Shown: positions 6,637 to 38,029, numbered from the stretch's first letter. The stretch is 57,627 bases of DNA from Candidatus Flemingiibacterium sp. (GCA_045587285.1 JAZNBZ010000160.1:1-57627), one strand, 5' to 3'. Program-made: numbers and translations. The notes: generated from the sequence alone by a model not told the origin.

Positions 6637-7410
6637 ATGTTAAAGCAAAAAATATTAAACAAGGAAAAGACTGTCGGTATGTACGTTCAGCTCTCCGACG
6701 TCAGCATCTCGCGCATAGCGGGACTTGCGGGCTACGACTTTGTTTGGGTTGACACCGAGCACAGCTATATGTCGCACGAAACGCTGCTCGGTCACATAAT
6801 GGCGCTTCGCTCGACGGGTACGCCTATCATCGTCCGCGTGCCGCAGGACGACCTTTCTGCAACCAAGCACGTGCTTGATATGGGCGTTGACGGTATAATC
6901 TTCCCGATGATACGCACGGCAGAGGATGCGAACCGCGTGATATCGTGGACGCTTTATCCGCCCGAGGGCGAGCGCGGCTTCGGTCCTATGAATGCGAACG
7001 ACTACGGCTTCACGCCTGCGTTTGAATACACGAAGAAAACGCGTGACACCCTTTGCCGCTTTATACAGATCGAGCACAAGGACGCTATCGACAACCTTGA
7101 CGAGATAATGAAGAACCCGTACGTTGACGGCTATATCTTCGGCCCGAACGACCTGTCGGGTTCGTACGGTATGCTCGGCGAGTTCCTCTCGGATAAGATA
7201 ACGAGCGTTATGAGGGACGCTATCGACAAGCTTCACCAAAACGGCAAGTACGTTGCTATAGCGTCGGGCGGATATTCAGACGAAATACTCGAGCATTGGA
7301 GCAGCTTTGGCGTGGAGATGCTGTCGGCAGGCGCGGACTTTGATTTCCTTCGCGACTGTGCGAGAAGAAATCGCGAAAGCCTCGAGAGAATACACAAGAC
7401 CGAACGATAA
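6637..7410 (+). CDS. HpcH/HpaI family 2-keto-3-deoxy-acid aldolase
   Basis: The ORF track starts at 6553. I prefer the in-frame ATG at 6637, which has a GAGGTG RBS 6 nt upstream. Family-typical motifs: GYDFVWVDTEHS, VRVP, GIIFPMI and IQIEH. Confidence 0.75.
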   Translation: MLKQKILNKEKTVGMYVQLSDVSISRIAGLAGYDFVWVDTEHSYMSHETLLGHIMALRSTGTPIIVRVPQDDLSATKHVLDMGVDGIIFPMIRTAEDANRVISWTLYPPEGERGFGPMNANDYGFTPAFEYTKKTRDTLCRFIQIEHKDAIDNLDEIMKNPYVDGYIFGPNDLSGSYGMLGEFLSDKITSVMRDAIDKLHQNGKYVAIASGGYSDEILEHWSSFGVEMLSAGADFDFLRDCARRNRESLERIHKTER

Positions 7411-7440
7411 AACGAAAACGGCAGAGTCCACACTCTGCCG

Positions 7441-7683
7441 TTATTTTATCTCCTGCTCGAGGTTTGAAAATTCGTCAGTTGCGAAAAATTCCGCAAGCGA
7501 GATGCCAAGTCCGTCGCACAGCATCTTTATGGTGACGATTCCGGGATTTTTGCTTTTGCCGTACAGTATATTCTTTATTGTAGACGGCGGCACAGCCGCC
7601 TCCATTGCCAGCTTGTGTATAGACATTCCTTTTTGCTCGCACAAAACCAGCAAGCGGTTCTTTACGGTCGTATACGTATTCAT
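7441..7683 (-). CDS. XRE family helix-turn-helix transcriptional regulator (80 aa)
   Basis: HTH_3-like LCEQKGMSIHKLAMEAAVPPSTIKNILYG. Preferred start is the ATG at 7683 with a GGAGGG RBS. The track start at 7695 lacks an RBS. Confidence 0.75.
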   Translation of the reverse strand: MNTYTTVKNRLLVLCEQKGMSIHKLAMEAAVPPSTIKNILYGKSKNPGIVTIKMLCDGLGISLAEFFATDEFSNLEQEIK

Positions 7684-7712
7684 ATGTCCCTCCATTTATC
7701 TTATAGGCTAAT

Positions 7713-7745
7713 TATAGCCCATTTAACCAAAACATATGGGCTATA
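7713..7745. promoter_or_regulatory. candidate operator: 9-bp perfect inverted repeat upstream of the XRE gene
   Basis: TATAGCCCA (7713-7721) and TGGGCTATA (7737-7745), separated by 15 nt. It lies 30-60 bp upstream of the XRE start codon. Confidence 0.4.
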
Positions 7746-7777
7746 TATGATACAACCGCAAGCGCCTCACTTTAAAT

Positions 7778-7794
7778 TGTCGTTTTTTGTCGAA
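7778..7794 (+). promoter_or_regulatory. tandem Spo0A-box-like pair (TGTCGTT + TGTCGAA, 10-bp phase)
   Basis: TGTCGTT at 7778-7784 and TGTCGAA at 7788-7794. The pair lies between the spoIVA terminator and the XRE gene promoter region. Confidence 0.45.
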
Positions 7795-7826
7795 AAAATA
7801 AAATCGGCTTGCGCGTGGCGCAAGCC
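7793..7826 (-). terminator. intrinsic terminator of spoIVA
   Basis: Stem GGCTTGCGC/GCGCAAGCC (7806-7826) with a 3-nt loop, followed on the minus strand by a U-rich tract (plus-strand A-run 7793-7805). Confidence 0.8.
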
Positions 7827-7832
7827 GTGTGT

Positions 7833-9311
7833 TTACAATATAATGCAGATAAGTCCGCCGCTGCCCTCGTTGATGATGCGTCCGAGCGTTTCGGAAAGCT
7901 TCGTGCGCGCGTCCTCGGGCATATGCTCAAGCTTCGTGTGAAGCCCCTCGTTTATAAGCTGGTGGAGCGTTTTGCCGAACATATTCGATTGCCATATCTT
8001 CGTCGGATCCTCCTCAAACTCGCGGAGCATATACTTAACGAGCTCCTCCGACTGCTGCTCCGTGCCGACTACGGGGCTTATCTCCGTTTCGATATTCGCC
8101 TTTATCATATGGATGCTCGGTGCGGACGCACGAAGGCGTACGCCGTAGCCGCCCGATTGCTTGACTATCTCGGGCTCCTCGAGGTGCAGGTCTGCCGTTT
8201 CGGGCATAACGATGCCGTAGCCCTTTTGCTCGACGTCCGCGAGCGCGAGAGCGACGCGGTCGTATTTTTCCTTTGTTGCGGCAAGCTCCAAAAGCAGGGT
8301 GATAAGCTTTTTCTCGCTTGATACGTCAAATCCGCAAAGCTCGCTTACGGTGCTGTAGTAAAGCCCGTCGGCAAGCTCAACCGACAGCTCCGCCGTGCCG
8401 TGCCCGAGGTCGATTTTGTCGATATTCACGCACTTTATTTCCTCGCACCCGTCTGTATCCGCGAACACGCCGGCTATCTCGCCTATCTTCTTTATTCTCG
8501 CCGCGCGCGAGGTGACGAGCTCTTTCATCGCGCATACGAGGGAATGCGAGCTATCGAGCGCCTGCGTCCATTCGGGCAGCTTCACCCTCACCTCGCGAAC
8601 GGGAAACTCGAGCAGAACGAGCTCTAAAATATGCCGTATATCCTCCGCGTCGAGGCGCAGACAGTTGACGAGCGCGACGGGGGCGCCGTATTTTTCCTCG
8701 AGCTCGAGAGCAAGCGCTACCGCGCTCTCGCTTTTCGGATCGGCAGCGTTAAGTATGATGGCGAACGGCTTGCCTGCCGCCTTGAGCTCGCGTACGACGC
8801 GCTCCTCTGCCTCGACGTAGCTCTCGCGCCCGATCTCGCCGATAGTGCCGTCCGTCGTAACGAGCATACCGACGGTGGCGTGCTCGGAAATTACCTTGCG
8901 CGTGCCAAGCTCTGCCGCCTCTATAAACGGCATCGGCTCCGCCTGCCACGGCGTGTGAACCATACGCGCGTGCCCGTCCTCGATATGTCCGATAGCCTCG
9001 GGTACGATGTAGCCGACGCAGTCAACCGCTTTTACCCTCGTAACGGCGTTGTCGGAGAGCGTGATCTCCACAGCCTCGTCGGGAACAAATTTCGGCTCGG
9101 TCGTCATAACCGTTTTGCCCGCGGCGCTTTGAGGCATTTCGTCCTTTGCGCGCTCACGCTCGTGCTCGTCTCTTATAGCCGGTATTACCAGAGTCTCCAT
9201 AAAGCGCTTGATAAACGTCGATTTGCCCGTGCGCACGGGCCCGATAACGCCGAGGTAAAACGTACCCGCGGTACGCTCGGCTATATCCTTATAAACATTC
9301 GTGTCTTGCAT
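7833..9311 (-). CDS. spoIVA: stage IV sporulation protein A (spore coat morphogenetic ATPase)
   Basis: 492 aa from the ATG at 9311, with a GGAGG RBS (complement of 9320-9324). Sequence MQDTNVYKDIAERTAGTFYLGVIGPVRTGKSTFIKRFME carries the Walker A motif. The C-terminal ...INEGSGGLICIIL is typical of SpoIVA. The 46-codon N-terminal extension in the track is rejected. Confidence 0.9.
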   Translation of the reverse strand: MQDTNVYKDIAERTAGTFYLGVIGPVRTGKSTFIKRFMETLVIPAIRDEHERERAKDEMPQSAAGKTVMTTEPKFVPDEAVEITLSDNAVTRVKAVDCVGYIVPEAIGHIEDGHARMVHTPWQAEPMPFIEAAELGTRKVISEHATVGMLVTTDGTIGEIGRESYVEAEERVVRELKAAGKPFAIILNAADPKSESAVALALELEEKYGAPVALVNCLRLDAEDIRHILELVLLEFPVREVRVKLPEWTQALDSSHSLVCAMKELVTSRAARIKKIGEIAGVFADTDGCEEIKCVNIDKIDLGHGTAELSVELADGLYYSTVSELCGFDVSSEKKLITLLLELAATKEKYDRVALALADVEQKGYGIVMPETADLHLEEPEIVKQSGGYGVRLRASAPSIHMIKANIETEISPVVGTEQQSEELVKYMLREFEEDPTKIWQSNMFGKTLHQLINEGLHTKLEHMPEDARTKLSETLGRIINEGSGGLICIIL

Positions 9312-9430
9312 TGTTCGTTCCTCCCTAAAGATAGTTACTGACACATTTATATTAAGGATGGCGCACAAATATTCCGCGAGGGCTATATATGATACTAAAA
9401 AACATAAGTCTTTGTAGGAATTTTGATTTT

Positions 9431-9448
9431 TTCGACATTTTTTCGACA
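9431..9448 (-). promoter_or_regulatory. tandem consensus Spo0A boxes (2 x TGTCGAA, 11-bp phase)
   Basis: TTCGACA at 9431-9437 and 9442-9448, which read TGTCGAA on the minus strand, each followed by an A-run. They lie in the divergent region between spoIVA and the first Spo0A_C gene. Confidence 0.55.
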
Positions 9449-9512
9449 TTTGTTGATTGAATTATAGTAAAAAACGACAAAAAATTTGTTCTAACTTAGG
9501 TTGTACTGCCAA

Positions 9513-9541
9513 TTGCATTTTAGTTGTTTATATGGTAAAAT
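9513..9541 (+). promoter_or_regulatory. sigmaA-type promoter of the 9618 Spo0A_C gene
   Basis: TTGCAT at 9513-9518, 17-nt spacer, TAAAAT at 9536-9541, with a TGg extended -10 element. Confidence 0.5.
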
Positions 9542-9617
9542 ATTATTAGATTAACGTGCAGATGTGTGCTGAAGCATTATGACAGACGTATCACAAAAGC
9601 ACCACAGGAGAACCCAG

Positions 9618-10028
9618 ATGATCATAAACGTAAACACACCGCATACCAACACGAAGGGAGACGAGAGAGAGCAGATAGAAAATCAGATTTTTGATATAAT
9701 GCTTGAACTCGGAGTTCCACTCAATCTAAAAGGCTTCGCGTATCTGTGTGACTCAGTTCGCATAACATATTACGAGCCAATGTCCGGCGCCAGAATCGTA
9801 GACCGCCTTTATACACAGGTAGCTAAGGAAAACGGCACTACCGTACAGTGTGTAGAGCATGCGATCCGCACGGCACTTAAACGTGTGGAAAGCATACGTG
9901 ACAAGAGTGTGCTGAAAAAATATTTCGCTACGGCAGAATGTCCGTCGCCAAAAAGATTTATCAACTCACTTGCAGACTGGGTACGACGCAACGTGGACAA
10001 AAACGAAAGCCGCACCGCCCAAAGATAG
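9618..10028 (+). CDS. stand-alone Spo0A C-terminal (effector/DNA-binding) domain protein
   Basis: LELGVPLNLKGFAYLCDSVRI...LYTQVAKENGTTVQCVEHAIRTALKRV...KRFINSLADWV matches the layout of the Spo0A effector domain. No receiver domain is present. Preferred start is the ATG at 9618 with an AGGAG RBS. The track start at 9579 is in frame. Confidence 0.75.
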   Translation: MIINVNTPHTNTKGDEREQIENQIFDIMLELGVPLNLKGFAYLCDSVRITYYEPMSGARIVDRLYTQVAKENGTTVQCVEHAIRTALKRVESIRDKSVLKKYFATAECPSPKRFINSLADWVRRNVDKNESRTAQR

Positions 10029-10042
10029 GGCGGCGCGGTTTT
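10009..10042. terminator. intrinsic terminator between convergent Spo0A_C genes
   Basis: Stem CCGCACCGCCC/GGGCGGCGCGG with a 7-nt loop containing the TAG stop codon, followed by TTTTT. Confidence 0.75.
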
Positions 10043-10059
10043 TCTTTGCTTATAAACGG

Positions 10060-10413
10060 TTATTCCTCCGACGAGTGAAGATACCTTGCGATTTCGCTGA
10101 TTACGAGTGCGCTCGGCGGATAGGCGTCGCTTTCGGTACGCTCGAGAAAATCGTTGAGCAGGCCGAAATCTGCGGCGTGCTCTATAGCGTGGCGGCAGCC
10201 GCGCGAAACGCTTGTGATAGGCACGCGTCCGCAAAGGCGTGCAACTCTGGGAAAGAGCGATTTCGTGACGTAAGCGGTAAGCTCGGGGGAGTGATAGGCT
10301 TCGATGACGGCGCATCGCAGATATTCGTAGCCGCGAAGGTCAGCGGGGAAGCCGAGGCTGATAAGTGCTTTGGCGGTGTTTTCCTTGAGGTGCGCGTTGC
10401 AGTAAGAGTACAT
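10060..10413 (-). CDS. stand-alone Spo0A C-terminal domain-like protein (divergent paralog)
   Basis: LISLGFPADLRGYEYLRCAVIEAY...LFPRVARLCG..ITSVSRGCRHAIEHA. The ATG at 10413 overlaps the upstream gene's TGA stop (TGATG). The track's extra first codon is a TTG. Confidence 0.6.
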   Translation of the reverse strand: MYSYCNAHLKENTAKALISLGFPADLRGYEYLRCAVIEAYHSPELTAYVTKSLFPRVARLCGRVPITSVSRGCRHAIEHAADFGLLNDFLERTESDAYPPSALVISEIARYLHSSEE

Positions 10414-10820
10414 CAAATATCCCTGAATACGCGCGAGCCGGGCTTGATTAAATGATTGCGGAGCTTTTCCGCGAAAAGGGCGATGAACTTACGCGCGGAA
10501 ACGCCCTTCGCACGGAAGCCGAAATGCGAAAAGGATTCGTCAAGCACGGCAAAGCTTCCCGAGCTTAGGATGACTTTAAGCTCGCTTCGAATGTCGCGCT
10601 CAACGCAGGAGGGCGAGGTGCCTGCTTCTTCGGCGATCCTTGCGTATAAGCCGTTCATTACGTTGTGTATAGCGTCGGGCTCGTCGTGTACGATCTCAAT
10701 TGCGCGGCAAAGATAGGCAAAGCCCTTGATATGGGTTACCGCACCCATTTCGATAAGCAGTATTCGTATTTCTGCGCCAAGCTCGGTTTGCGCCCCTTCT
10801 TGGGTGTTCGTGTGTAGCAT
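10413..10820 (-). CDS. stand-alone Spo0A C-terminal domain protein
   Basis: LIEMGAVTHIKGFAYLCRAIEIVHDEPDAIHNVMNGLYARIAEEAGTSPSCVERDIRSELKVI...ARKFIALFAEKL. GGAG RBS. No receiver domain. Confidence 0.75.
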   Translation of the reverse strand: MLHTNTQEGAQTELGAEIRILLIEMGAVTHIKGFAYLCRAIEIVHDEPDAIHNVMNGLYARIAEEAGTSPSCVERDIRSELKVILSSGSFAVLDESFSHFGFRAKGVSARKFIALFAEKLRNHLIKPGSRVFRDI

Positions 10821-10957
10821 TCTGCGGCTCCTTTTGCGGGTGGTTTAACGTATGCGCCGTATACGATTAGGTATATTATAGCATATTTTGCCGTATTTTT
10901 CAATGTTAAAGACACACGAATATTCGCGTGCTGATTTGGTCAGCAGTTCTATCTTTC

Positions 10958-10974
10958 TGTCGAATATTGTCGAA
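10958..10974 (+). promoter_or_regulatory. tandem consensus Spo0A boxes (2 x TGTCGAA, 10-bp phase)
   Basis: TGTCGAA at 10958-10964 and 10968-10974. They lie in the divergent intergenic region between the Spo0A_C gene (10413-10820, minus strand) and cysK. Confidence 0.55.
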
Positions 10975-11059
10975 AACGCTAAAAAACGATTGCCGCACTT
11001 GACAACGCGGACGCTCGGTGATAGAATAATATTATTAAAGCGAAGGGGGCTTTTGTAAG

Positions 11060-11989
11060 GTGAATATAAAGAGATCCGTTTGCGAGCTTATCGGCAAAAC
11101 GCCGCTTCTCTTGCTCTCGCGATACGGTGAGGCGCACGGTGTGAAGGGAACGGTGCTCGCAAAGCTTGAATATTTTAATCCTGCGGGAAGCGTCAAGGAT
11201 AGAGTTGGCGCGAGGATGATAGAGGACGCCGAGAAGAGCGGCAAGCTGAAGCCGGGCGCGACTATTATCGAGCCGACAAGCGGCAACACGGGTATAGGAC
11301 TTGCCGCAGTCGCCGCCGCAAAGGGCTATAAGGTCATTCTGACAATGCCCGACACGATGAGCCGTGAGCGCATCGCGCTGCTTCGCGCATACGGCGCGGA
11401 GCTCGTTTTGACGGACGGCGCGAAGGGGATGGCGGGCGCTATCGAAAAGGCAAAGGAGATCGCCGCCGCAACGCCCGGAAGTATCATCGCGGGACAGTTT
11501 GAAAACCCGGCAAATCCTGCGGCGCACTACGAAGGCACGGGCCCCGAGATATGGGAGGATACCGACGGAAAGGTCGATATCTTCGTCGCAGGCGTCGGCA
11601 CGGGCGGAACGCTTACGGGTACGGCACGTTACTTAAAGGAGAAAAATCCCGACGTCAAGGTCGTTGCAGTCGAGCCGGCATCGTCGCCGCTCCTCTCGAA
11701 GGGCATATCGGGTGCGCACGGGCTTATGGGCATCGGAGCGAACTTCGTTCCCGAGATACTCGACACCTCGCTCTGCGACGAGATAATCGCCGTTACCGAG
11801 GAGGAGGCGTATGCGGCAGGGCGCGAGCTCGTAGGACGCGAGGGCGTGCTCGTCGGCATAACCTCGGGTGCGGCGCTTCACGCGGCGACGCTCGTTGCGT
11901 CGCGCGAGGAAAACCGCGGCAAAACGGTCGTGGTGCTCCTTCCGGATACGGGCGAGAGATATTTATCGACGCCGATGTATAGCGAATGA
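11060..11989 (+). CDS. cysK: cysteine synthase A (O-acetylserine sulfhydrylase)
   Basis: LIGKTPLL, NPAGSVKDR (the PLP-binding lysine), EPTSGNTGIGLA and GVGTGGTLTG. GTG start. A TTGACA-17-TAGAAT promoter lies at about 10998-11026. Confidence 0.9.
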   Translation: MNIKRSVCELIGKTPLLLLSRYGEAHGVKGTVLAKLEYFNPAGSVKDRVGARMIEDAEKSGKLKPGATIIEPTSGNTGIGLAAVAAAKGYKVILTMPDTMSRERIALLRAYGAELVLTDGAKGMAGAIEKAKEIAAATPGSIIAGQFENPANPAAHYEGTGPEIWEDTDGKVDIFVAGVGTGGTLTGTARYLKEKNPDVKVVAVEPASSPLLSKGISGAHGLMGIGANFVPEILDTSLCDEIIAVTEEEAYAAGRELVGREGVLVGITSGAALHAATLVASREENRGKTVVVLLPDTGERYLSTPMYSE

Positions 11990-25393: not shown

Positions 25394-27568
25394 ATGAAGA
25401 TAATCAAAAGAAACGGCTCGGAGGCGGAATTTGATAAGTCGAAGATAGCCGTAGCTATCGGCAAGGCAAACGATGCTATTGAGGAAGCGTACCGAATCAC
25501 GCCGCTGCAGATCGAGCGCATAGTTGAAAGCGTAGTTATAAGCTGTCAGGCACTCGGACGCTCGCCCGAGGTCGAGGAAGTGCAGGATATGGTCGAGCAT
25601 CAGCTTATGGCGCACGGTGCGTTTGAGCTTGCCAAGCTTTACATCACCTACCGCTACACCCGAAGCCTCGTTCGCCAGTCGAACACCACCGACGATAAAA
25701 TACTCTCGCTTATCGAGTGCAACAACGAGGAGGCGAAGCAGGAAAACGCTAACAAAAACCCCGTTATCAACTCCACGCAGCGCGACTATATGGCAGGCGA
25801 GGTGTCGCGCGATATCACCACGCGCATACTCCTGCCCGAGGATATCGTAAAGGCGCACAACGAGGGCATAATCCATTTCCACGACACCGATTACTACGCA
25901 CAGCATATGCACAACTGCGACCTCGTTAACCTCGAGGATATGTTAGAGAACGGCACGGTCATCACGGGTACTCTCATCGAGCGTCCGCACAGCTTCTCCA
26001 CCGCCTGCAACATAGCAACGCAGATAATCGCGCAGGTCGCGTCCAATCAGTACGGCGGACAGTCTATTTCGCTGACGCATCTCGCGCCCTTCGTGCAGGT
26101 AAGCCGCGACAAGATAACCGCAGACGTCAAAGAGGAAAACGCGGGTGTCGGCCGCGAACTTACGGACGCACAGATAAGCGAGATCGTTGAGCGCCGTCTC
26201 AAGGAGGAGATACGCAGAGGCGTGCAGACCATACAGTATCAGGTCGTAACGCTTCTCACTACGAACGGACAGGCTCCGTTCGTTACGGTGTTTATGTACC
26301 TCAACGAGGCAAAGAACGACGCCGAGAAGCGCGATCTTGCTATGATAATCGAGGAGGTCCTCAATCAGCGCATTATGGGCGTTAAGAACGAAAAGGGCGT
26401 TTGGGTAACGCCCGCGTTCCCGAAGCTCGTTTACGTTTTAGAGGAGGACAATATAAACGAGGGCGCGCCGTATTACTACCTCACACAGCTTGCGGCGAAG
26501 TGTACCGCGAAGCGTATGGTGCCCGACTACATCTCCGAGAAAAAGATGCTCGAGCTAAAGATCGACAAAAACGGCGACGGACACTGCTACACCTGTATGG
26601 GCTGCCGCAGTTTCCTCACTCCTTACGTTGACGAAAACGGTCAGCCGAAATATTACGGCAGATTCAATCAGGGCGTCGTTACGATAAATCTCGTTGACGT
26701 CGCGCTCTCGAGCGAAAAGGACCGCGACTCGTTCTGGAAGATATTCGACGAGCGTCTTGAGCTTTGCCACCGCGCGCTTATGTGCCGTCACGAGCGCCTC
26801 AAGGGTACGCTTTCCGACGCCGCGCCTATTCTTTGGCAGTACGGCGCACTCGCGCGCCTCAAAAAAGGCGAAACCATTGACAAGCTCCTCTACGGCGGCT
26901 ACTCGACCATCTCCCTCGGCTACGCGGGACTTTACGAGTGCGTGCGCTATATGACGGGCAGATCGCATACCGATCCCGAGGCAACTCCGTTCGCGCTCGA
27001 GGTTATGGAGCATATGAACGCCGCCTGCCGCAAGTGGAAGGCGGAGCATAACATCGACTTTTCGCTTTACGGCACTCCGCTTGAGTCCACGACTTATAAG
27101 TTTGCAAAGTGCTTACAGCGCCGCTTCGGTATCATCAAGGACGTTACCGACAAGTCGTACATCACCAACTCCTATCACATTCACGTTACCGAAGAGGTCA
27201 ACGCATTCGACAAGCTCATATTCGAGGCGCAGTTCCAGGCGCTCTCGCCCGGCGGAGCGATAAGCTACGTCGAGGTGCCCAATATGCAGAACAACCTCGA
27301 GGCGGTAATGCAGGTCATTCGCTGTATCTACGATAACATTATGTACGCCGAGCTTAACACCAAGAGCGACTACTGTCAGGAGTGCGGCTTCGACGGCGAG
27401 ATCGAGATACGCGAGGTCGGCGGCAAGCTTGTGTGGACCTGCCCGAACTGCGGCAATACCGATCAGGATAAGATGAACGTCGCACGCCGTACCTGCGGCT
27501 ACATCGGTACGCAGTACTGGAATCAGGGCAGAACGCAGGAGATCAAGGAAAGAGTGCTTCATTTATAA
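25394..27568 (+). CDS. nrdD: anaerobic ribonucleoside-triphosphate reductase (class III) with N-terminal ATP-cone
   Basis: 724 aa. ATP-cone (MKIIKRNGSEAEFDKSKI), C-terminal Zn ribbon (CxxC...CPNCG) and glycyl-radical motif RRTCGYIG. Confidence 0.95.
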   Translation: MKIIKRNGSEAEFDKSKIAVAIGKANDAIEEAYRITPLQIERIVESVVISCQALGRSPEVEEVQDMVEHQLMAHGAFELAKLYITYRYTRSLVRQSNTTDDKILSLIECNNEEAKQENANKNPVINSTQRDYMAGEVSRDITTRILLPEDIVKAHNEGIIHFHDTDYYAQHMHNCDLVNLEDMLENGTVITGTLIERPHSFSTACNIATQIIAQVASNQYGGQSISLTHLAPFVQVSRDKITADVKEENAGVGRELTDAQISEIVERRLKEEIRRGVQTIQYQVVTLLTTNGQAPFVTVFMYLNEAKNDAEKRDLAMIIEEVLNQRIMGVKNEKGVWVTPAFPKLVYVLEEDNINEGAPYYYLTQLAAKCTAKRMVPDYISEKKMLELKIDKNGDGHCYTCMGCRSFLTPYVDENGQPKYYGRFNQGVVTINLVDVALSSEKDRDSFWKIFDERLELCHRALMCRHERLKGTLSDAAPILWQYGALARLKKGETIDKLLYGGYSTISLGYAGLYECVRYMTGRSHTDPEATPFALEVMEHMNAACRKWKAEHNIDFSLYGTPLESTTYKFAKCLQRRFGIIKDVTDKSYITNSYHIHVTEEVNAFDKLIFEAQFQALSPGGAISYVEVPNMQNNLEAVMQVIRCIYDNIMYAELNTKSDYCQECGFDGEIEIREVGGKLVWTCPNCGNTDQDKMNVARRTCGYIGTQYWNQGRTQEIKERVLHL

Positions 27569-31350: not shown

Positions 31351-31379
31351 TGACAAGCCGATTTTGATATGTTAGAATG
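31351..31379 (+). promoter_or_regulatory. consensus promoter of the paralog array (P1)
   Basis: TTGACA at 31351-31356, 17-nt spacer, TAGAAT at 31374-31379. The flanking ATGTTAGAATG is identical to the sequence at P4. Confidence 0.65.
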
Positions 31380-31410
31380 GCATCGGAAAATATATTTTTT
31401 GGAGGCTTTT

Positions 31411-33552
31411 ATGTTACCGAGAATAAATCCCGAGCTTACACCCGAGAGAAATAATCTTCCCACCCGTTGGCAGACCGTTATTTTCAGAAACTACCGTATG
31501 ATCAGCGCAGACGTTATCGCCAAGGTGCTCGAGTGCAGCGTCGAGGTCGTTGAGCGTGAGGCTAAACGTATGGGACTTCGCGCGGGTGAATATAACCCCG
31601 AGTGGATGGAGCGCGGCTTCATTACCGTTATCCGCAACAATTGGTATCTACTCCCGTACGATCAGCTTATGACGCTGACCGGTTACACAGAGGACCATCT
31701 CGACTTCATTCTCGAAAAGGAGGATTTTCTCTCCTACAAGCTCGGCTACAGAAACAAGCCGGAGTGCGCGCGTGTAATCTACTCGCCGCTTACCGACGAA
31801 GAAATCGCCGAAACCGAGCACGTTGCGAAGATCATCGCAAAGTTTGACACGTCGGAGCGAGTTTACTTTGATATCTACCGCGACAAGACCGACCGTGAGC
31901 CGAAGTATGTCGCCTCCAAGGAAGGCGGCTCGAGAGGACTTCACCCGTATCTCGCGTCCTGCTCGGATCCGTTCATTACCGACACGAGAAGCTTCCTTCC
32001 CGACGCGCTTCTCGACGATTATGCGAAGTACGGCATTAACAGCATTGGCGCTCACGGCGTTCTTTCAACGCTCTCTCCGTTCCCGTACGACCCCGATCAG
32101 AGCCGTGACTACAAGATCCGCCGCAAGAACTTAAAGGATCTCGTTGAGCGCGCCGGCAAGCGCGGCATCGGCATCAGTCTTTACTTTAACGAGCCGCTTG
32201 CGGTGCCGATCAATAAGTTCGAAAAGTACGGCCGCCCCGAGCTTGCGGGACGCGTCAGTGGGAGCGGTCTGGTGTCGCTCTGTATGGAGGTTGAGGAGAA
32301 CCGTCAGTGGTTTTATAATGCTATAAAGGACCTTCTCACGGAAATTCCCGACATTGGGAGCATCGGCTGTACCACTATGGGTGAGAACCCCACGCACTGT
32401 CTGTCCAGCAAGCGCGCCGCAGGCGATCAGAACTGTCCGCGATGTGCTGACCTTCCGCTTCACAGAGGCTCGACCACCGTATGTAACCTCGTCTTGAAGG
32501 CTGTACGTGACTCTGGTGCCAAGACGAGCGTCGGATGCTCGACCTGGCAGTGGACTGACGAGATGGTCGAGGAGGGCTTCAAGGAGCTTGATCCCGAGAT
32601 AAGCGTAAGCGCTACAAGCGAATGGGGCGTTAAGACCAACATCGGCGGCATTCCGTGGGAGGTTGTTGACTTCTCTATCGCCAACTACGGTCCGAGTGAC
32701 TGGGCAAAGCGAGTTGTAAGCCACGGACTTGCAACAGGACACAAGGTAGGCCTTAAGGTGCAGATGTCCTGCAGCTGGGAGCTTGCGGTATGCCCGTATC
32801 TGCCGCTGTTTGATCTTGAGCTTGAGCACATTAAGGCGGTGCACGATATCGGAGTAACCAGCCTCGGTCTTACCTGGACTCTCGGAGGCTATCCGTCCAT
32901 CACGTTTGATATGGTCGCTGACTACCTGACGGCACCAGACACGTTCACGATGGAAAAATGGTACGAAAAGCATTTTGGCAAGGACGGCGAGCGCGTTCAC
33001 GAGGCGGTTAAGCTCTTCAGCCGCGGATACCGCGAATATCCGTTCAGCGCATACACCGCTTACCACGATCCCAATAACCTCGGCGTTTCCAACCGTTGGA
33101 GCTTAACTCCGAACACCAACAAGACGACTATGGTAAACTGGACCTTCGACGATCCCGAATACTATGCAAAGCCGTATCCGATAGACATCTACATAAACCA
33201 GTACGAAAAATTGCTTGCCGATTGGGACAAGGGTATTGAACTGCTTGAGGGCGTTGACAACGATATTGCGCGCGAGATGCTGCTGTTTGCACGTGTTGCG
33301 GCAAATCATTTCCATTCGAGTATAGTACACACAAAGTATGTTCTTGCAAAGAGAAAGCTTCCCGAAGCGAAGGACGAGATGCGTGCGGTTATCGCAGAGG
33401 AAAGAGCGCTTTGCGAGGAGCTTATCGAGCTCTTGCCGCAGTCTACTATGATTGCGTACGAAACGTCGAACCACTATTTCTACACAGAGCGCGATATTAT
33501 CGAAAAGCTTATACAGCTGGACGGGCTCGAAAAAGAGCTTGACAATATGTGA
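31411..33552 (+). CDS. uncharacterised 713-aa cytoplasmic protein, paralog 1 of 4 (HTH-like N-terminal modules plus barrel-like core)
   Basis: ATG at 31411 with a GGAGG RBS (track start 31369 rejected). MLPRINPELTPERNNLPTRWQTVIFRNYRM...TSNHYFYTERDIIEKLIQLDGLEKELDNM. No TM segment or signal peptide. Confidence 0.85.
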   Translation: MLPRINPELTPERNNLPTRWQTVIFRNYRMISADVIAKVLECSVEVVEREAKRMGLRAGEYNPEWMERGFITVIRNNWYLLPYDQLMTLTGYTEDHLDFILEKEDFLSYKLGYRNKPECARVIYSPLTDEEIAETEHVAKIIAKFDTSERVYFDIYRDKTDREPKYVASKEGGSRGLHPYLASCSDPFITDTRSFLPDALLDDYAKYGINSIGAHGVLSTLSPFPYDPDQSRDYKIRRKNLKDLVERAGKRGIGISLYFNEPLAVPINKFEKYGRPELAGRVSGSGLVSLCMEVEENRQWFYNAIKDLLTEIPDIGSIGCTTMGENPTHCLSSKRAAGDQNCPRCADLPLHRGSTTVCNLVLKAVRDSGAKTSVGCSTWQWTDEMVEEGFKELDPEISVSATSEWGVKTNIGGIPWEVVDFSIANYGPSDWAKRVVSHGLATGHKVGLKVQMSCSWELAVCPYLPLFDLELEHIKAVHDIGVTSLGLTWTLGGYPSITFDMVADYLTAPDTFTMEKWYEKHFGKDGERVHEAVKLFSRGYREYPFSAYTAYHDPNNLGVSNRWSLTPNTNKTTMVNWTFDDPEYYAKPYPIDIYINQYEKLLADWDKGIELLEGVDNDIAREMLLFARVAANHFHSSIVHTKYVLAKRKLPEAKDEMRAVIAEERALCEELIELLPQSTMIAYETSNHYFYTERDIIEKLIQLDGLEKELDNM

Positions 33553-33570
33553 TTTATAAGGAGAATTGCT

Positions 33571-35745
33571 ATGTTACCCGTAATCAACCCCGAAATGACA
33601 CCCGAAAGAAACAATCTTCCCACCCGTTGGCAGACGGTTATTTTCAGAAACTACCGTATGGTGCCTGCTGAAAATATCGCAAAGGTGCTTGAGTGCACAG
33701 TAGAGGACGTTGAGCGCGAGGCGGCACGCCTCGGACTTCGCCAAGGTGAAGCCGATCCGATATGGTTCAGACGCGGACATATCACGATTATCCGCAACAA
33801 CTGGTATCTTTTGCCGTATGAGCAGATGCTGACGCTTCTTGACTATACCGAGGAAAAGCTCGATTTTATACTCGAAAAGGAGGACGGCCTTTATTCAAAG
33901 CTCGGCTTCACCAAGCCACTTTGTGAGAAGGTTACCTACTCGCCGCTTACCGAGGCGGAAATTGCCGAAACCGAAGCACTAGCAAAGACGATATCCGAGT
34001 ACGATACCTCTCATAGGGCATATTTCGATTTTTACGACGATACTTCCGATTTTGAGCCGAGATACGTTACGTCAGTCGAAAAGGGTATTCGTATGGTTTA
34101 TCCGTACCTCACTCCGTGCGGTGATCCGTTTTTGGTGGATTCTCGCACGCATCTGCCCGACGAGCTGCTTGATGACTACGCAAAGGTCGGCGTGAACACG
34201 TTTATCATTTACGCTGTTTTGTCGACGCTTTCACCGTATCCGATAAACCCCGAGGATAGCCGCGACTATAAGCTTCGCCGTAAGAATCTAAAGGAGCTTA
34301 TTGAGCGCGCAGGCAAGCGCGGTATTAAGATATGCCTTTATTTAAACGAGCTGCGTGCATTGCCGCGTGAGGTTTTCGAGCGTTACGGCAGACCTGACCT
34401 TGGCGGATCGGTAAGCGGCTCGGGGGATTTCGTTGCGCTTTGTATGCAGAAGGAGGAAAACCAAAAGCTTCTTTACGATCTTACGTATGACCTCTTTTCC
34501 GATATTCCCGAGATCAGCTACGTGTGCTGTACCACAATGAGCGAGCACATGACTCATTGCATTTTCCAAACGTATTATCCGGAGCTTCCAACGACTCCCG
34601 GCGATCCGAGAGGGACTGTGTGTCCCGTTTGCAAGGAGCTTCCCGTTGAAACAAATTCGGTAATCGTCTTGAATATCATCAATAAAGCTATTCGCGACGC
34701 CGGCAGCAATGCGACTACGATTGGTACAATGTGGGCGTGGAGTAGCGAGGAGATGATAGAAAACGGTATCCCGAAGCTTGACAAGGATATGATTATCTTA
34801 GGCTTCAGTGAATGGGGTATGCCGTTTAAGGCCGGCGAGCGCACGTTTGAGGTTATTGACTATTCCATTTCCAATTACGGACCGAGTGAGCGATACAAAA
34901 AGGTTGCCAAGGTCGCTATGGAAAGCTCTCACGAGATGATGGCAAAGGTTCAGCTTTCAAATAGCTGGGAGCTTGCGGCGGTGCCGTATCTGCCTCTTTT
35001 CGATATGGAGCTTGACCATATAAGAAATCTTAATGCAATAGGCACGAAAAACTATCAGCTGACCTGGACGCTGGGAAGTTATCCGTCGCTTACGTTTGAT
35101 ATGGTGGCGAACTATCTCGACGCTCCCGATACGTTCGACCTTGACAAATGGTATGAGAAGCATTACGGTGCAGACGCACCGAGAGTGCACGAGGCTGTAA
35201 AGCATTGCTGCAAGGGCTTCAGGGAGTATCCGTTCAGCATAGAGGTCATCTATTTCTCCGCGAAGAATCACGGTGCGGTCAACCGTTGGAATTTGTCGCC
35301 CGTTAAGCAAAGCTCCGCGGTGGTAGGCTGGACGTTCGATGACGTTGAGTATTATACAAGACCGTATAAGCCGCAGCTCTTTATCGAGCATTACGAAAGG
35401 CTTATCGCTGAATTTGACAAGGGTATTGAAATTCTTGAAGGCGCACAGAGCACGGACGCCGCAAAGGAGCTGCTCCTCTTTGCCAAGATTGCGAGAAATC
35501 ACTTTATGGCGGACGTTGTACATACAAAATATGTGCTTGCAAAACGCAGACTGCCCGCCTCGAAGGACGAGATGCGCACGCTTATCGCAGAAAACCGCGC
35601 ACTCTGTCTTGAGCTTTTAGAGCTCGTTGCGCAGTCGACGCTCGCCTGCTACGAAACCGCAAATCACTATTTCTACACCGAGCGCGATATTATCGAAAAG
35701 CTTATTCAGCTTGACGGCCTTGAAAAAGAGCTTGAAAATATGTAA
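33571..35745 (+). CDS. uncharacterised 724-aa protein, paralog 2 of 4
   Basis: AAGGAGA RBS, 18 nt after paralog 1. Collinear with paralogs 1 and 3 along its whole length. Confidence 0.85.
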   Translation: MLPVINPEMTPERNNLPTRWQTVIFRNYRMVPAENIAKVLECTVEDVEREAARLGLRQGEADPIWFRRGHITIIRNNWYLLPYEQMLTLLDYTEEKLDFILEKEDGLYSKLGFTKPLCEKVTYSPLTEAEIAETEALAKTISEYDTSHRAYFDFYDDTSDFEPRYVTSVEKGIRMVYPYLTPCGDPFLVDSRTHLPDELLDDYAKVGVNTFIIYAVLSTLSPYPINPEDSRDYKLRRKNLKELIERAGKRGIKICLYLNELRALPREVFERYGRPDLGGSVSGSGDFVALCMQKEENQKLLYDLTYDLFSDIPEISYVCCTTMSEHMTHCIFQTYYPELPTTPGDPRGTVCPVCKELPVETNSVIVLNIINKAIRDAGSNATTIGTMWAWSSEEMIENGIPKLDKDMIILGFSEWGMPFKAGERTFEVIDYSISNYGPSERYKKVAKVAMESSHEMMAKVQLSNSWELAAVPYLPLFDMELDHIRNLNAIGTKNYQLTWTLGSYPSLTFDMVANYLDAPDTFDLDKWYEKHYGADAPRVHEAVKHCCKGFREYPFSIEVIYFSAKNHGAVNRWNLSPVKQSSAVVGWTFDDVEYYTRPYKPQLFIEHYERLIAEFDKGIEILEGAQSTDAAKELLLFAKIARNHFMADVVHTKYVLAKRRLPASKDEMRTLIAENRALCLELLELVAQSTLACYETANHYFYTERDIIEKLIQLDGLEKELENM

Positions 35746-35759
35746 TAAGGAGAGTTGCT

Positions 35760-37934: not shown

Positions 37935-37950
37935 AATAGCTGTAAATGGC

Positions 37951-37979
37951 TTGACATTAGGGAAAGTAAATGTTAGAAT
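37951..37979 (+). promoter_or_regulatory. consensus promoter of paralog 4 (P4), a duplicate of P1
   Basis: TTGACA at 37951-37956, 17-nt spacer, TAGAAT at 37974-37979. Geometry and ATGTTAGAATG context are the same as P1. Confidence 0.6.
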
Positions 37980-37980
37980 G

Positions 37981-38018
37981 AATGGGCAGAGAGAAATTTT
38001 CTGCCCATTTATATTTTT
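37981..38018 (+). terminator. terminator-like hairpin placed immediately after the P4 -10 box
   Basis: AATGGGCAG (37981-37989) pairs with CTGCCCATT (38001-38009), followed by TATATTTTT. It could terminate the paralog 1-3 transcript. A TSS from P4 would fall inside the 5' arm. Confidence 0.5.
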
Positions 38019-38029
38019 GGAGAAAGCTT

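What the first reader, a model, noticed from the sequence alone, without database searches (positions are those of the whole stretch)
7778..10974. Three helically phased tandem pairs of the Spo0A-box heptamer TGTCGAA in intergenic regions around spoIVA and the Spo0A_C genes
The pairs are:
- 7778-7784 (TGTCGTT) plus 7788-7794 (TGTCGAA), 10-bp phase
- 9431-9437 plus 9442-9448 (both TGTCGAA on the minus strand), 11-bp phase
- 10958-10964 plus 10968-10974 (both TGTCGAA), 10-bp phase

The pairs sit, respectively, upstream of the XRE regulator, in the divergent region between spoIVA and the first Spo0A_C gene, and in the divergent region between the last Spo0A_C gene and cysK.

TGTCGAA is the established 0A-box consensus for Spo0A. 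Tandem boxes at about one helical turn are the arrangement seen at classical Spo0A targets. In my manual scan, the other exact copies in the window are isolated and intragenic: 6384, 23949, 27206, 28679 and 51086. That is close to the roughly 7 expected by chance for a 7-mer on both strands. Five exact copies packed into three phased intergenic pairs within 3.2 kb is therefore very unlikely to be random. The pairs bracket the genes for proteins predicted to bind exactly this motif.
Basis: partly seen in the sequence, partly recalled or inferred. Interest (0 to 1): 0.65.

Follow-up and report, generated by a model that had tools for sequence, protein, structure and literature searches.

The report
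Spo0A-box operators of receiver-less Spo0A paralogs
Two perfect tandem copies of the Spo0A binding motif are real, non-random and conserved, but they belong to the promoters of three small genes that encode only the Spo0A DNA-binding domain, not to spoIVA, cysK or the XRE gene. This points to an untested circuit linking the sporulation master regulator to phosphorylation-independent copies of its own DNA-binding domain.

Summary
All stated boxes are at the stated coordinates. The 5.55 kb of intergenic DNA in the window should hold about 0.7 exact TGTCGAA boxes and about 1e-4 phased exact pairs. It holds 5 boxes and 2 pairs, all within 640 bp around the Spo0A_C genes.

The window is a contig of an uncultured gut Clostridium, Candidatus Flemingiibacterium. 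Comparison with 16 related loci changes the interpretation:
- The 10-bp pair (10958-10974) is invariant in 8 lineages, 54 nt upstream of the -35 of the P3-P2 operon (two Spo0A_C genes).
- The 11-bp pair (9431-9448) travels with the P1 Spo0A_C gene in three different genomic contexts, always 64 nt upstream of its -35. It is absent upstream of spoIVA wherever P1 is absent.
- The XRE "pair" is one exact box plus a 2-mismatch box. It is missing in two of four relatives.
- In 325 kb of fetched DNA, every exact tandem pair lies upstream of a P1- or P3-type gene.

The genus also has a full-length Spo0A whose recognition helix is identical to that of B. subtilis.

Best reading: these are high-affinity Spo0A-family operators that wire receiver-less Spo0A paralogs to Spo0A and/or to themselves. 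The binding protein and the sign of regulation are inferred, not shown.

The parts
10958..10974 (+). Tandem exact 0A boxes TGTCGAA-tat-TGTCGAA (10-bp period). This is the P3-type operator. It lies 54 nt upstream of the -35 of the P3-P2 operon (about -90 to -106) and 24 nt upstream of the cysK -35 (about -60 to -76).
   Evidence: Both boxes are 98-100% identical across 8 lineages, while the rest of the spacer is 70% identical. The 3-bp spacer varies in sequence (tat, gat, aat, cac) but not in length. The distance to the -35 is 54 nt in 7 of 8 lineages and 53 in one.
9431..9448 (-). Tandem exact 0A boxes TGTCGAA-aaaa-TGTCGAA (11-bp period). This is the P1-type operator. It lies 64 nt upstream of the P1 -35 (about -100 to -117) and reads TTCGACA in the direction of P1.
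   Evidence: Present in 7 P1-type lineages in 3 genomic contexts, always with a 4-bp spacer and 64 nt to the -35. Absent upstream of spoIVA in loci that lack P1.
9473..9479 (-). Weak third box TGTCGTT (keeps G2, C4 and G5), at about -69 to -75 of P1.
   Evidence: It is kept in close relatives (TGTCGTT or TGTCGAT) but not in the distant P1-type loci L011, L013 and L015, so its status is doubtful.
7778..7794 (+). The XRE 'pair': TGTCGTT (2 mismatches) plus exact TGTCGAA, 10-bp period. It starts directly after the T-tract of the spoIVA terminator and lies upstream of the XRE gene. It is lineage-specific.
   Evidence: Present in the window and L009 only. It is replaced by a 13-15 bp gap in L001 and L008, while the XRE promoter region downstream is invariant. 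The terminator is at 7805-7827 on the minus strand.
10413..10820 (-). P3: a receiver-less Spo0A_C protein of 135 aa with recognition helix CVERDIR. First gene of the P3-P2 operon.
   Evidence: Pfam PF08769, 74 bits against a cutoff of 25. Aligns to 1LQ1/1FC3 at E about 1e-12. The AlphaFold2 model matches only the Spo0A DNA-binding domain, with target-normalised TM-score 0.78-0.88. CVER[DN]IR is invariant in 12 orthologues.
10060..10416 (-). P2: a receiver-less Spo0A_C protein of 118 aa with helix VSRGCRHAIE. It overlaps the P3 stop by 4 nt, which suggests translational coupling.
   Evidence: Pfam, 51 bits. PDB alignment. The P3-P2 overlap or abutment is kept in all loci. Orthologue alignment.
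9618..10028 (+). P1: a receiver-less Spo0A_C protein of 136 aa with helix QCVEHAIR. It is an indel gene of lower G+C (0.46).
   Evidence: Pfam, 68 bits. PDB alignment. Family alignment with QCVEH invariant. The gene is absent in L003, L005 and L006. G+C values.
10875..10903 (-). SigmaA-type promoter of the P3-P2 operon: TTGAAA-N17-TGcTATAAT.
   Evidence: 11 of 12 consensus matches with an extended -10. Both hexamers are 97-98% conserved in 8 lineages.
9513..9541 (+). SigmaA-type promoter of P1: TTGCAT-N17-TGgTAAAAT.
   Evidence: Read from the sequence. It is conserved as TTGxAT-N17-TA(A/G)AAT in 7 lineages. It falls below the scan tool's -35 criterion in the window itself.
10999..11027 (+). 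SigmaA-type promoter of cysK: TTGACA-N17-TAGAAT, divergent from P3.
   Evidence: 11 of 12 consensus matches. Conserved in 8 lineages.
7833..9311 (-). spoIVA (492 aa), with a sigmaE-like promoter (GGAATATT 9368-9375, AATATAAAT 9345-9353, minus strand). It is a neighbour of the P1 operator, not its target.
   Evidence: Pfam SpoIVA ATPase, middle and C-terminal domains. The promoter block is conserved in all loci with or without boxes.
7441..7695 (-). XRE-family HTH regulator (84 aa). It is an indel gene of lower G+C (0.455).
   Evidence: Pfam HTH_26 and HTH_3. Absent in L003, L005 and L006. G+C.
11060..11989 (+). cysK-like PLP enzyme (309 aa).
   Evidence: Pfam PALP, 276 bits.

Best explanation
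The two exact pairs are conserved operators for Spo0A-type DNA-binding domains. They belong to the transcription units that encode receiver-less Spo0A paralogs.

**Anatomy.** Each operator is a head-to-tail direct repeat of the 0A-box core. It sits at a fixed, helically in-phase distance upstream of a sigmaA-type promoter: 54 nt upstream of the -35 of the P3-P2 operon, and 64 nt upstream of the -35 of P1. In both cases it reads TTCGACA towards the gene.

**Proposed mechanism.** I propose that two Spo0A-type domains bind each pair cooperatively, as they do at documented two-box Spo0A sites. I propose that the main binder is the organism's full-length Spo0A, whose recognition helix is identical to the B. 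subtilis one. Production of the phosphorylation-independent paralogs would then be coupled to Spo0A activity. P3 keeps the E-R-x-x-R recognition residues, so it probably also binds, which would give autoregulation.

**What is shown.** The sites exist, are far beyond chance, are conserved at single-base resolution and move with the paralog genes. The proteins are Spo0A_C-fold proteins, and the genus has a Spo0A with a canonical DNA-binding domain.

**What is inferred.** Which protein binds, whether binding activates or represses, and what the paralogs do downstream. The third pair, upstream of XRE, is probably a recent and possibly non-functional addition.
For: - **Statistics:** 5 boxes against 0.73 expected, and 2 phased exact pairs against 1e-4 expected, in intergenic DNA.
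- **Conservation of the P3-type pair:** invariant in 8 lineages whose P3 proteins are 64-92% identical. The box columns are 98-100% identical against 70% for the rest of the spacer, the same level as the -35 and -10 hexamers. The 3-bp spacer varies in sequence.
- **Extra boxes:** some lineages carry a third exact box at 9-10 bp.
- **P1-type pair travels with its gene:** it occurs in three genomic contexts: divergent from spoIVA, BacA>P1>cysK, and HTH>P1>CLIPPER. The spacer is always 4 bp and the distance to the -35 is always 64 nt.
- **Specificity of the association:** all 24 exact tandem pairs found in 325 kb from 49 sources lie upstream of P1- or P3-type genes.
- **Exclusion of the neighbours:** loci without P1 have spoIVA without boxes, and L011 cysK has none.
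- **A canonical Spo0A is present:** P0025 comes from the same MAG (GCA_045579105.1) as locus L005/L010. It has SRVERAIRHAIEVAW, identical to B. subtilis, and scores 150 bits on Spo0A_C.
- **Spo0A's own promoter:** in that MAG it carries TTCGACG-N3-TTCGAAG in the same orientation, 33 nt from its -35, plus an exact box further upstream. The distances 33, 54 and 64 differ by about 2 and 1 helical turns.
- **Literature:** TGTCGAA is the Spo0A core, contacted at G2, C4 and G5. The isolated DNA-binding domain binds without phosphorylation, and the motif holds in Clostridia (PMC3485338). Footprinted Spo0A sites consist of two boxes 3 bp apart (PMC2731898).
- **P3 identity:** P3 folds like 1LQ1/1FC3 and keeps CVERxIR.
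- **Expression hint:** a gut metatranscriptome holds short contigs at least 99% identical to P1, P3 and spoIVA coding sequence.
Against: - No binding or expression experiment exists, and the organism is uncultured.
- The operators lie about 90-117 bp upstream of the predicted transcription starts. That is too far for simple occlusion or for contact at the -35, and the promoters are already near consensus, so the sign and mode of regulation are unclear.
- The P1-type spacer is 4 bp, not the 3 bp documented for Spo0A sites. The type-specific spacing (P1 always 11, P3 always 10) could mean that each paralog binds its own site rather than Spo0A.
- The compared loci are homologous, so conservation counts lineages, not independent origins. 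Among close relatives the P1 upstream region is 89% identical overall.
- Other families of stand-alone Spo0A_C genes show no tandem pairs, so this is not a general rule for such genes.
- I could not scan a complete genome of the genus, so the true genome-wide frequency of such pairs is unknown.
- Transcription starts are predicted, not mapped.
Confidence: 0.62

Rival explanations
1. Pure autoregulation. The boxes are the operators of the paralogs themselves: P1 on the 11-bp pair, and P3 (perhaps with P2) on the 10-bp pair. Each gene plus its operator forms a self-contained module, and full-length Spo0A plays no physiological part.
For: - Gene and operator move together through three genomic contexts.
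- Spacing is type-specific and invariant: 4 bp for P1-type and 3 bp for P3-type.
- P1 and XRE are low-G+C indel genes, as expected of acquired modules.
- PF08769 genes are reported as enriched on mobile elements of gut Firmicutes (PMC6907783).
- Isolated Spo0A DNA-binding domains bind DNA without phosphorylation (PMC3485338).
Against: - P1 has an invariant His where Spo0A has the first Arg of E-R-x-x-R, yet its boxes are perfect canonical TGTCGAA. Both gene types share the same core despite different helices, which is more simply explained by one common binder.
- A Spo0A with a canonical helix is present in the same genus, and in L011 it lies 4.4 kb from the P1-type gene. It would be expected to bind perfect tandem consensus sites.
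Confidence: 0.2
2. The pairs are Spo0A sites that place spoIVA, the XRE regulator and cysK in the Spo0A regulon, and the Spo0A_C genes are bystanders or co-targets.
For: - Each pair lies in a spacer shared with one of these genes.
- The cysK -35 is only 24 nt from the 10-bp pair, and the cysK adjacency is conserved in 8 lineages.
- The XRE pair abuts a weak promoter-like match, TTTAAA-N18-TATCAT.
Against: - spoIVA keeps its sigmaE-like promoter but has no boxes in L003, L005 and L006, which lack P1.
- P1-type pairs occur without any spoIVA nearby.
- L011 cysK lacks boxes.
- The XRE pair is absent in L001 and L008.
- In B. subtilis, the sigmaE factor turns on 262 genes of the mother-cell programme (PMC517825). 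That spoIVA is one of them, and is not a direct Spo0A target, is from my own knowledge.
- Co-regulation of cysK from the shared spacer is not excluded.
Confidence: 0.08
3. The repeats bind an unrelated factor, or are neutral products of local tandem duplication in A/T-rich spacers with no regulatory role.
For: - Each pair could arise from a single 10-11 bp duplication.
- The boxes are embedded in A- or T-runs.
- Exact TGTCGAA-N3-TGTCGAA occurs in more than 117 viral contigs, roughly what chance allows in a collection of that size.
Against: - The same 7-mer is found in two independent arrays.
- The boxes are invariant while the spacers between them and the flanks diverge.
- Distances to the promoters are fixed.
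- The pairs are associated exclusively with Spo0A_C genes in 325 kb.
- The XRE regulator cannot be the binder, because the boxes persist where it is absent.
Confidence: 0.05

Closest known systems
Two-box Spo0A binding sites of Bacillus (abrB promoter; phage phi29/Nf sites 0A-1 and 0A-3)
   Same: - The same 7-bp core, TGTCGAA.
- Two boxes in direct repeat separated by 3 bp, giving a 25-30 bp footprint (PMC2731898). The window's site TGTCGAAtatTGTCGAA has exactly this geometry.
- In phi29 and Nf, one such site sits between divergent promoters and affects both, as could happen here in the P3|cysK spacer.
   Different: - Here both boxes are perfect. Most natural sites pair one good box with a degenerate one (PMC2731898, PMC3485338).
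- The sites lie about 90-117 bp upstream of the predicted starts, rather than over or next to the core promoter.
- The P1-type site has a 4-bp spacer.
- No binding has been shown.
Autoregulation of spo0A through 0A boxes at its own promoters (B. subtilis Pv/Ps)
   Same: - A Spo0A-family gene is preceded by 0A boxes that feed its product's activity back onto its own synthesis (PMC12090719).
- The genus' own spo0A promoter also carries 0A-like boxes in the same orientation.
   Different: - The genes here encode only the effector domain. Any feedback would therefore be independent of phosphorylation of the product.
- There are three such genes in two transcription units, in addition to spo0A.
Stand-alone Spo0A_C (PF08769) proteins of gut Firmicutes and their mobile elements
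   Same: - P1, P2 and P3 are members of this domain family without a receiver.
- The family is noted as enriched on mobile elements (PMC6907783).
- P1 behaves as an indel gene.
   Different: - I found no paper that assigns a function or a regulatory site to such proteins.
- Other stand-alone families sampled here (115-160 aa, including one viral) lack tandem boxes upstream.

Membership tests
Spo0A operator (0A-box site) | 7-bp core TGTCGAA with G2, C4 and G5 intact | tested here: met
   Five exact intergenic cores. The two weak boxes (TGTCGTT) keep G2, C4 and G5. The core and its contacted bases are defined in PMC3485338.
Spo0A operator (0A-box site) | Two boxes in direct repeat about one helical turn apart (3-bp spacer in footprinted sites) | tested here: met
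   The site at 10958-10974 has a 3-bp spacer, and the site at 9431-9448 has a 4-bp spacer. The 3-bp geometry is documented in PMC2731898. The 4-bp variant is not documented in what I read.
Spo0A operator (0A-box site) | Located in the regulatory region of a gene, with selective constraint on the boxes | tested here: met
   The boxes sit at fixed distances of 54 and 64 nt from conserved -35 hexamers. They are 98-100% conserved against 70% for the background.
Spo0A operator (0A-box site) | Bound by Spo0A~P or its DNA-binding domain, with an effect on transcription | not testable with these tools
   This needs EMSA or footprinting and reporter assays. The only indirect support is that the genus' Spo0A has a recognition helix identical to B. 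subtilis.
Spo0A_C effector-domain family (PF08769) | Significant match to the family profile and the Spo0A effector fold | tested here: met
   P1 scores 68, P2 51 and P3 74 bits against a cutoff of 25. All three align to 1LQ1/1FC3. The only significant PDB matches of the P3 model are Spo0A chains.
Spo0A_C effector-domain family (PF08769) | Recognition-helix residues of Spo0A (E-R-x-x-R in VERAIRH) that would predict 0A-box specificity | tested here: inconclusive
   P3 has VERDIR, with all three kept and invariant in 12 orthologues. P1 has VEHAIR, with His invariant. P2 has V(S/A)R(G/A)CR. Which residues make base contacts is recalled from the 1LQ1 literature and was not re-derived here.
Spo0A orthologue (sporulation master response regulator) | N-terminal receiver domain fused to Spo0A_C | tested here: not met
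   P1, P2 and P3 are 118-136 aa and consist of the effector domain alone. They are paralogs, not Spo0A. The true orthologue of the genus is P0025-like, about 270 aa.
Direct Spo0A control of spoIVA | Boxes co-conserved with the spoIVA promoter | tested here: not met
   L003, L005 and L006 keep the spoIVA promoter block but have no boxes. The boxes follow P1 instead.

The most novel reading that the evidence does not exclude
The pair 'tandem perfect 0A boxes plus receiver-less Spo0A DNA-binding-domain gene' is a portable regulatory module.

- It plugs into the host's Spo0A circuit. Spo0A switches on (or off) phosphorylation-independent copies of its own DNA-binding domain.
- Those copies then occupy 0A boxes genome-wide. 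They could lock in the sporulation decision as a feed-forward or bistable switch. They could instead act as dominant competitors that veto it.
- This occurs in a clade whose Spo0A itself has an unusually divergent receiver domain.
- Three diverged paralogs with different recognition helices would then partition or retune the Spo0A regulon.
Probability: 0.3. Interest if true: 0.75.

Novelty: new variant of a known kind. Interest (0 to 1): 0.55.

Why it matters
Spo0A is described as a canonical receiver-plus-effector regulator found in all known spore-formers (PMC6136694). Its activity is thought to be set by phosphorylation.

Stand-alone Spo0A_C proteins are common in gut Firmicutes and on their mobile elements (PMC6907783). 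I found no paper assigning them a function or a place in a circuit.

This locus gives a concrete, conserved and testable wiring diagram. Perfect tandem 0A boxes sit at fixed, helically phased positions upstream of each paralog transcription unit, in a genus that also has a Spo0A with a canonical DNA-binding helix.

If Spo0A drives these genes, or if they drive themselves, then sporulation initiation in this uncultured gut lineage contains a phosphorylation-independent layer of Spo0A-type DNA binding. That bears on how gut anaerobes decide to sporulate and transmit.

The practical value is that a few gel shifts and reporter fusions in a surrogate host would settle the question.

Tried and rejected
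- **JGI metagenome scan with the P3 family alignment:** no relatives found.
- **JGI metagenome scan with the P1 family alignment:** only distant hits at 30-37% identity. Most were full-length Spo0A of human-gut bacteria, plus other stand-alone families. None had tandem boxes, so I used them as a negative control.
- **Viral contig scan with the P1 family:** one 115-aa relative, without boxes.
- **Exact-pattern scan TGTCGAA-N3-TGTCGAA in viral contigs:** That is about what chance allows in a collection of that size, so it is uninformative and I did not pursue it.
- **GTDB genome scan:** only three species representatives, all Candidatus Flemingiibacterium, so the P3 family appears genus-restricted.
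- **Rfam search of 7300-11300:** nothing.
- **Conserved P1 5'UTR:** it does not fold better than shuffled sequence, z = -0.35.
- **RNA evidence:** one metatranscriptome, available as contigs only. Three short contigs fall in the coding regions. No transcription start information was obtained, and DNA carry-over is not excluded.
- **XRE regulator as the binder of the boxes:** rejected, because the boxes persist where the gene is absent.
- **Palindrome CGAATATTCG as a pair of inverted 0A half-sites:** rejected as a 0A box, because it has 3 mismatches including G2.
- **Spo0A receiver 'dead' in this genus:** my first impression did not survive a careful alignment. The Flemingiibacterium proteins keep the acidic pair, the phospho-acceptor Asp and the Lys.
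- **Literature searches for receiver-less Spo0A paralogs and for the genus:** nothing relevant.

Full report
**1. The observation**

Exact TGTCGAA occurs ten times in the window. Five copies are intergenic: 7788(+), 9431(-), 9442(-), 10958(+) and 10968(+). Five lie inside ORFs.

The total is unremarkable, with 9.1 expected from shuffles. The placement is not:
- I built a gene map and took 5.55 kb of intergenic DNA (43% G+C). A first-order Markov model expects 0.73 boxes there, and 5 are observed. Five or more occurred in about 0.1% of 2000 simulations.
- The model expects about 1e-4 same-strand exact pairs at 10-11 bp, and 2 are observed.
- All five intergenic boxes fall in three adjacent spacers totalling 640 bp.
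- Allowing up to one mismatch, the two exact pairs are the only same-strand pairs at 10-11 bp in the whole window.

The "pair" at 7778-7794 is weaker. Its first member, TGTCGTT, is two mismatches from consensus, although it keeps G2, C4 and G5.

**2. The genes**

Pfam confirms the following:

| Gene | Coordinates | Identity |
|---|---|---|
| XRE | 7441-7695(-) | XRE-type HTH protein |
| spoIVA | 7833-9311(-) | spoIVA |
| P1 | 9618-10028(+), 136 aa | Spo0A_C only |
| P2 | 10060-10416(-), 118 aa | Spo0A_C only |
| P3 | 10413-10820(-), 135 aa | Spo0A_C only |
| cysK | 11060-11989(+) | cysK-like enzyme |

- P1, P2 and P3 share only 24-33% identity with each other.
- All three align to the Spo0A effector-domain structures 1LQ1 and 1FC3.
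- An AlphaFold2 model of P3 (pLDDT 74.5) finds only Spo0A chains as significant PDB matches, with target-normalised TM-score 0.78-0.88.
- P3 and P2 overlap by 4 nt and are adjacent in every relative, so they form an operon.

Against Spo0A's recognition helix VERAIRHAIE:
- P3 has VERDIRSELK, and CVER[DN]IR is invariant in 12 orthologues.
- P1 has VEHAIRTALK, with His invariant.
- P2 has V(S/A)R(G/A)CR(H/R)AI.

**3. Where the window comes from**

A scan of GTDB species representatives found only three relatives of P3. All are MAGs named Candidatus Flemingiibacterium (Clostridia). The window is a whole 57.6-kb contig. DNA runs that hold it are gut, faecal and chicken-gut metagenomes.

**4. Comparative evidence**

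Homologues of P3 (64-92% identical) and of P1 (53-82% identical) led to 16 loci.

*(a) The 10-bp pair.* In all eight P3-bearing lineages, the spacer between cysK and P3 carries two exact boxes with a 3-bp spacer. In L003/L004 and L015/L016 it carries three boxes at 9 and 10 bp. In an eight-way alignment:
- The box columns are 98-100% identical against 70% for the rest of the spacer. This is the same level as the -35 and -10 hexamers of the two flanking promoters.
- The 3-bp spacer between the boxes varies in sequence (tat, gat, aat, cac).
- The proximal box is 54 nt (53 in one lineage) from the -35 of a near-consensus promoter, TTGAAA-N17-TGcTATAAT, that points at P3.

*(b) The 11-bp pair.* It is present wherever a P1-type gene is present, in three different contexts:
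- divergent from spoIVA (window, L001, L008, L009, L015);
- BacA>P1>cysK with no spoIVA nearby (L011/L012);
- HTH>P1>CLIPPER (L013/L014).

The spacer is always 4 bp. The pair is always 64 nt from a TTGxAT-N17-TGgTA(A/G)AAT promoter and always reads TTCGACA towards P1.

*(c) spoIVA is not the target.* L003, L005 and L006 lack P1. There spoIVA follows P2 directly. It keeps the same sigmaE-like promoter block and leader but has no boxes.

*(d) cysK is not the target in its own right.* In L011, cysK has its own promoter and no boxes.

*(e) The XRE pair is not conserved.* It exists only in the window and in L009. L001 and L008 have a 13-15 bp gap there, while the XRE promoter region downstream is invariant. 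The exact box begins right after the T-tract of the spoIVA terminator.

*(f) Exclusive association.* Across 325 kb from 49 sources, all 24 exact tandem pairs at 8-12 bp lie upstream of P1- or P3-type genes.

*(g) Not a general rule.* Other stand-alone Spo0A_C families (115-160 aa, one of them on a viral contig) show at most a single box upstream.

The constant association is therefore with the receiver-less Spo0A paralog genes. It is not with spoIVA, XRE or cysK.

**5. Who could bind**

Locus L011 encodes a 274-aa Spo0A 4.4 kb from its P1-type gene. Its relative P0025 comes from the same MAG (GCA_045579105.1) as locus L005/L010.

- These proteins score 150 bits on Spo0A_C. They carry SRVERAIRHAIEVAW, identical to B. 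subtilis.
- The genus therefore has a Spo0A that should recognise TGTCGAA.
- In that MAG, the spo0A promoter itself (TTGCAT-N17-TGgTAAAAT) is preceded by TTCGACG-cta-TTCGAAG in the same orientation, 33 nt from the -35. An exact box lies further upstream.
- The three distances 33, 54 and 64 nt differ by about two and one helical turns. This hints at a face-of-helix requirement, but it is an inference from three numbers.

From the literature:
- TGTCGAA is the Spo0A core, contacted at G2, C4 and G5.
- The isolated DNA-binding domain binds legitimate targets without phosphorylation.
- The specificity holds for a clostridial Spo0A (PMC3485338).
- Footprinted sites consist of two boxes 3 bp apart, and a site between divergent promoters can act on both (PMC2731898).
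- spo0A is autoregulated through 0A boxes (PMC12090719).

**6. Mechanism**

I commit to this reading: each pair is a high-affinity operator for two Spo0A-type domains bound head to tail, and it controls the adjacent paralog transcription unit.

- The most likely binder is Spo0A. One canonical helix explains why two gene types with different helices carry the same perfect core.
- P3 is a probable second binder, which would give autoregulation.
- The strictly type-specific spacing (4 bp for P1-type, 3 bp for P3-type) is the best argument for the rival, pure autoregulation.
- The sign of regulation is open. The sites lie about 90-117 bp upstream of the predicted starts of promoters that already look strong.
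- Regulation of cysK from the shared spacer is not excluded.
- A gut metatranscriptome contains three short contigs at least 99% identical to spoIVA, P1 and P3 coding sequence. This is a weak hint that the genes are expressed.

**7. Comparison with what is known, and novelty**

The sites are members of the 0A-box class by sequence and geometry. Binding could not be tested. P1, P2 and P3 are members of PF08769 but are not Spo0A orthologues, because they have no receiver domain.

I found no paper describing a function or regulatory site for receiver-less Spo0A paralogs. One study only notes that PF08769 is enriched on mobile elements of gut Firmicutes (PMC6907783).

I therefore rate this as a new variant of a known kind. 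The motif and domain are known. The new part is a conserved link between them, in an uncultured genus.

**8. Limits**

- All mechanism beyond sequence conservation is inferred.
- No complete genome of the genus could be scanned.
- Transcription starts are predicted, not mapped.
- The compared loci are related by descent, so they are not independent trials.

Noticed in passing
window 7738-7753 and 9380-9395; L001, L008, L009 upstream of spoIVA: A 16-bp element, GGGCTATATATGATAC, occurs twice. One copy is upstream of the XRE gene, inside an inverted repeat TATAGCCCAT...ATGGGCTATA. The other is upstream of spoIVA, between its sigmaE-like -35 and the 0A boxes. It is invariant in the relatives that carry the XRE gene and absent in L003, L005 and L006, which lack that gene. 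It is a candidate XRE operator that would put spoIVA under XRE control.
   Followed up: partly
window 10917-10926 and 10929-10945: A palindrome, CGAATATTCG, lies between the 10-bp box pair and the P3 -35. Its core AATATTCG is invariant in 8 lineages and is followed by a conserved TGTCTTT. Next to it is a short hairpin, TGCTGAtttggTCAGCA. It is not a 0A box and its role is unknown.
   Followed up: partly
L017 3501-4388 (P0025) and L018 3501-4325 (P0024); proteins P0024-P0143: The full-length Spo0A orthologues of this clade have a canonical DNA-binding domain but a very divergent receiver.
- Pfam Response_reg scores only 18-22 bits, or nothing, against a cutoff of 30.2. A canonical relative scores 66 bits.
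- The conserved Thr/Ser is Gly in 86 of 88 proteins, and the conserved Lys is Arg in 79 of 88.
- The phospho-acceptor Asp is Glu in 15 of 88.
- The Flemingiibacterium proteins themselves keep the acidic pair, the Asp and the Lys.
   Followed up: partly
window 31369-40171 (+) and 40222-42144 (-): Four tandem genes of 724-729 aa are 49-68% identical to one another. Three of them were scanned and have no Pfam match at E<=1e-5. A convergent 640-aa ORF also has no match.
   Followed up: no
window 7441-7695 and 9618-10028: P1 and the XRE gene have lower G+C (0.46) than their neighbours (0.53-0.60). They are present or absent as units among relatives, which suggests later acquisition. P1-type genes also sit in unrelated contexts in L011 and L013.
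   Followed up: partly
window 11060-11989; L011 5633-6562: cysK is the immediate neighbour of a Spo0A_C gene in both arrangements seen: divergent from P3 in 8 lineages, and directly downstream of the P1-type gene in L011. This may be coincidence or a functional link.
   Followed up: no
window 9548-9617: The predicted 70-nt leader of P1 is almost invariant among close relatives and still recognisable in L011 and L013. It has no Rfam match and folds no better than shuffles.
   Followed up: partly
window 47131-52937 (-): Two adjacent large subtilase genes (944 and 990 aa; Peptidase_S8 + PA + Fn3-like domains). Elsewhere in the window are an anaerobic ribonucleotide reductase (25394-27568) and an M23 peptidase (42351-43961). 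These are ordinary chromosomal content, and no other sporulation regulator was seen among the ORFs scanned.
   Followed up: no
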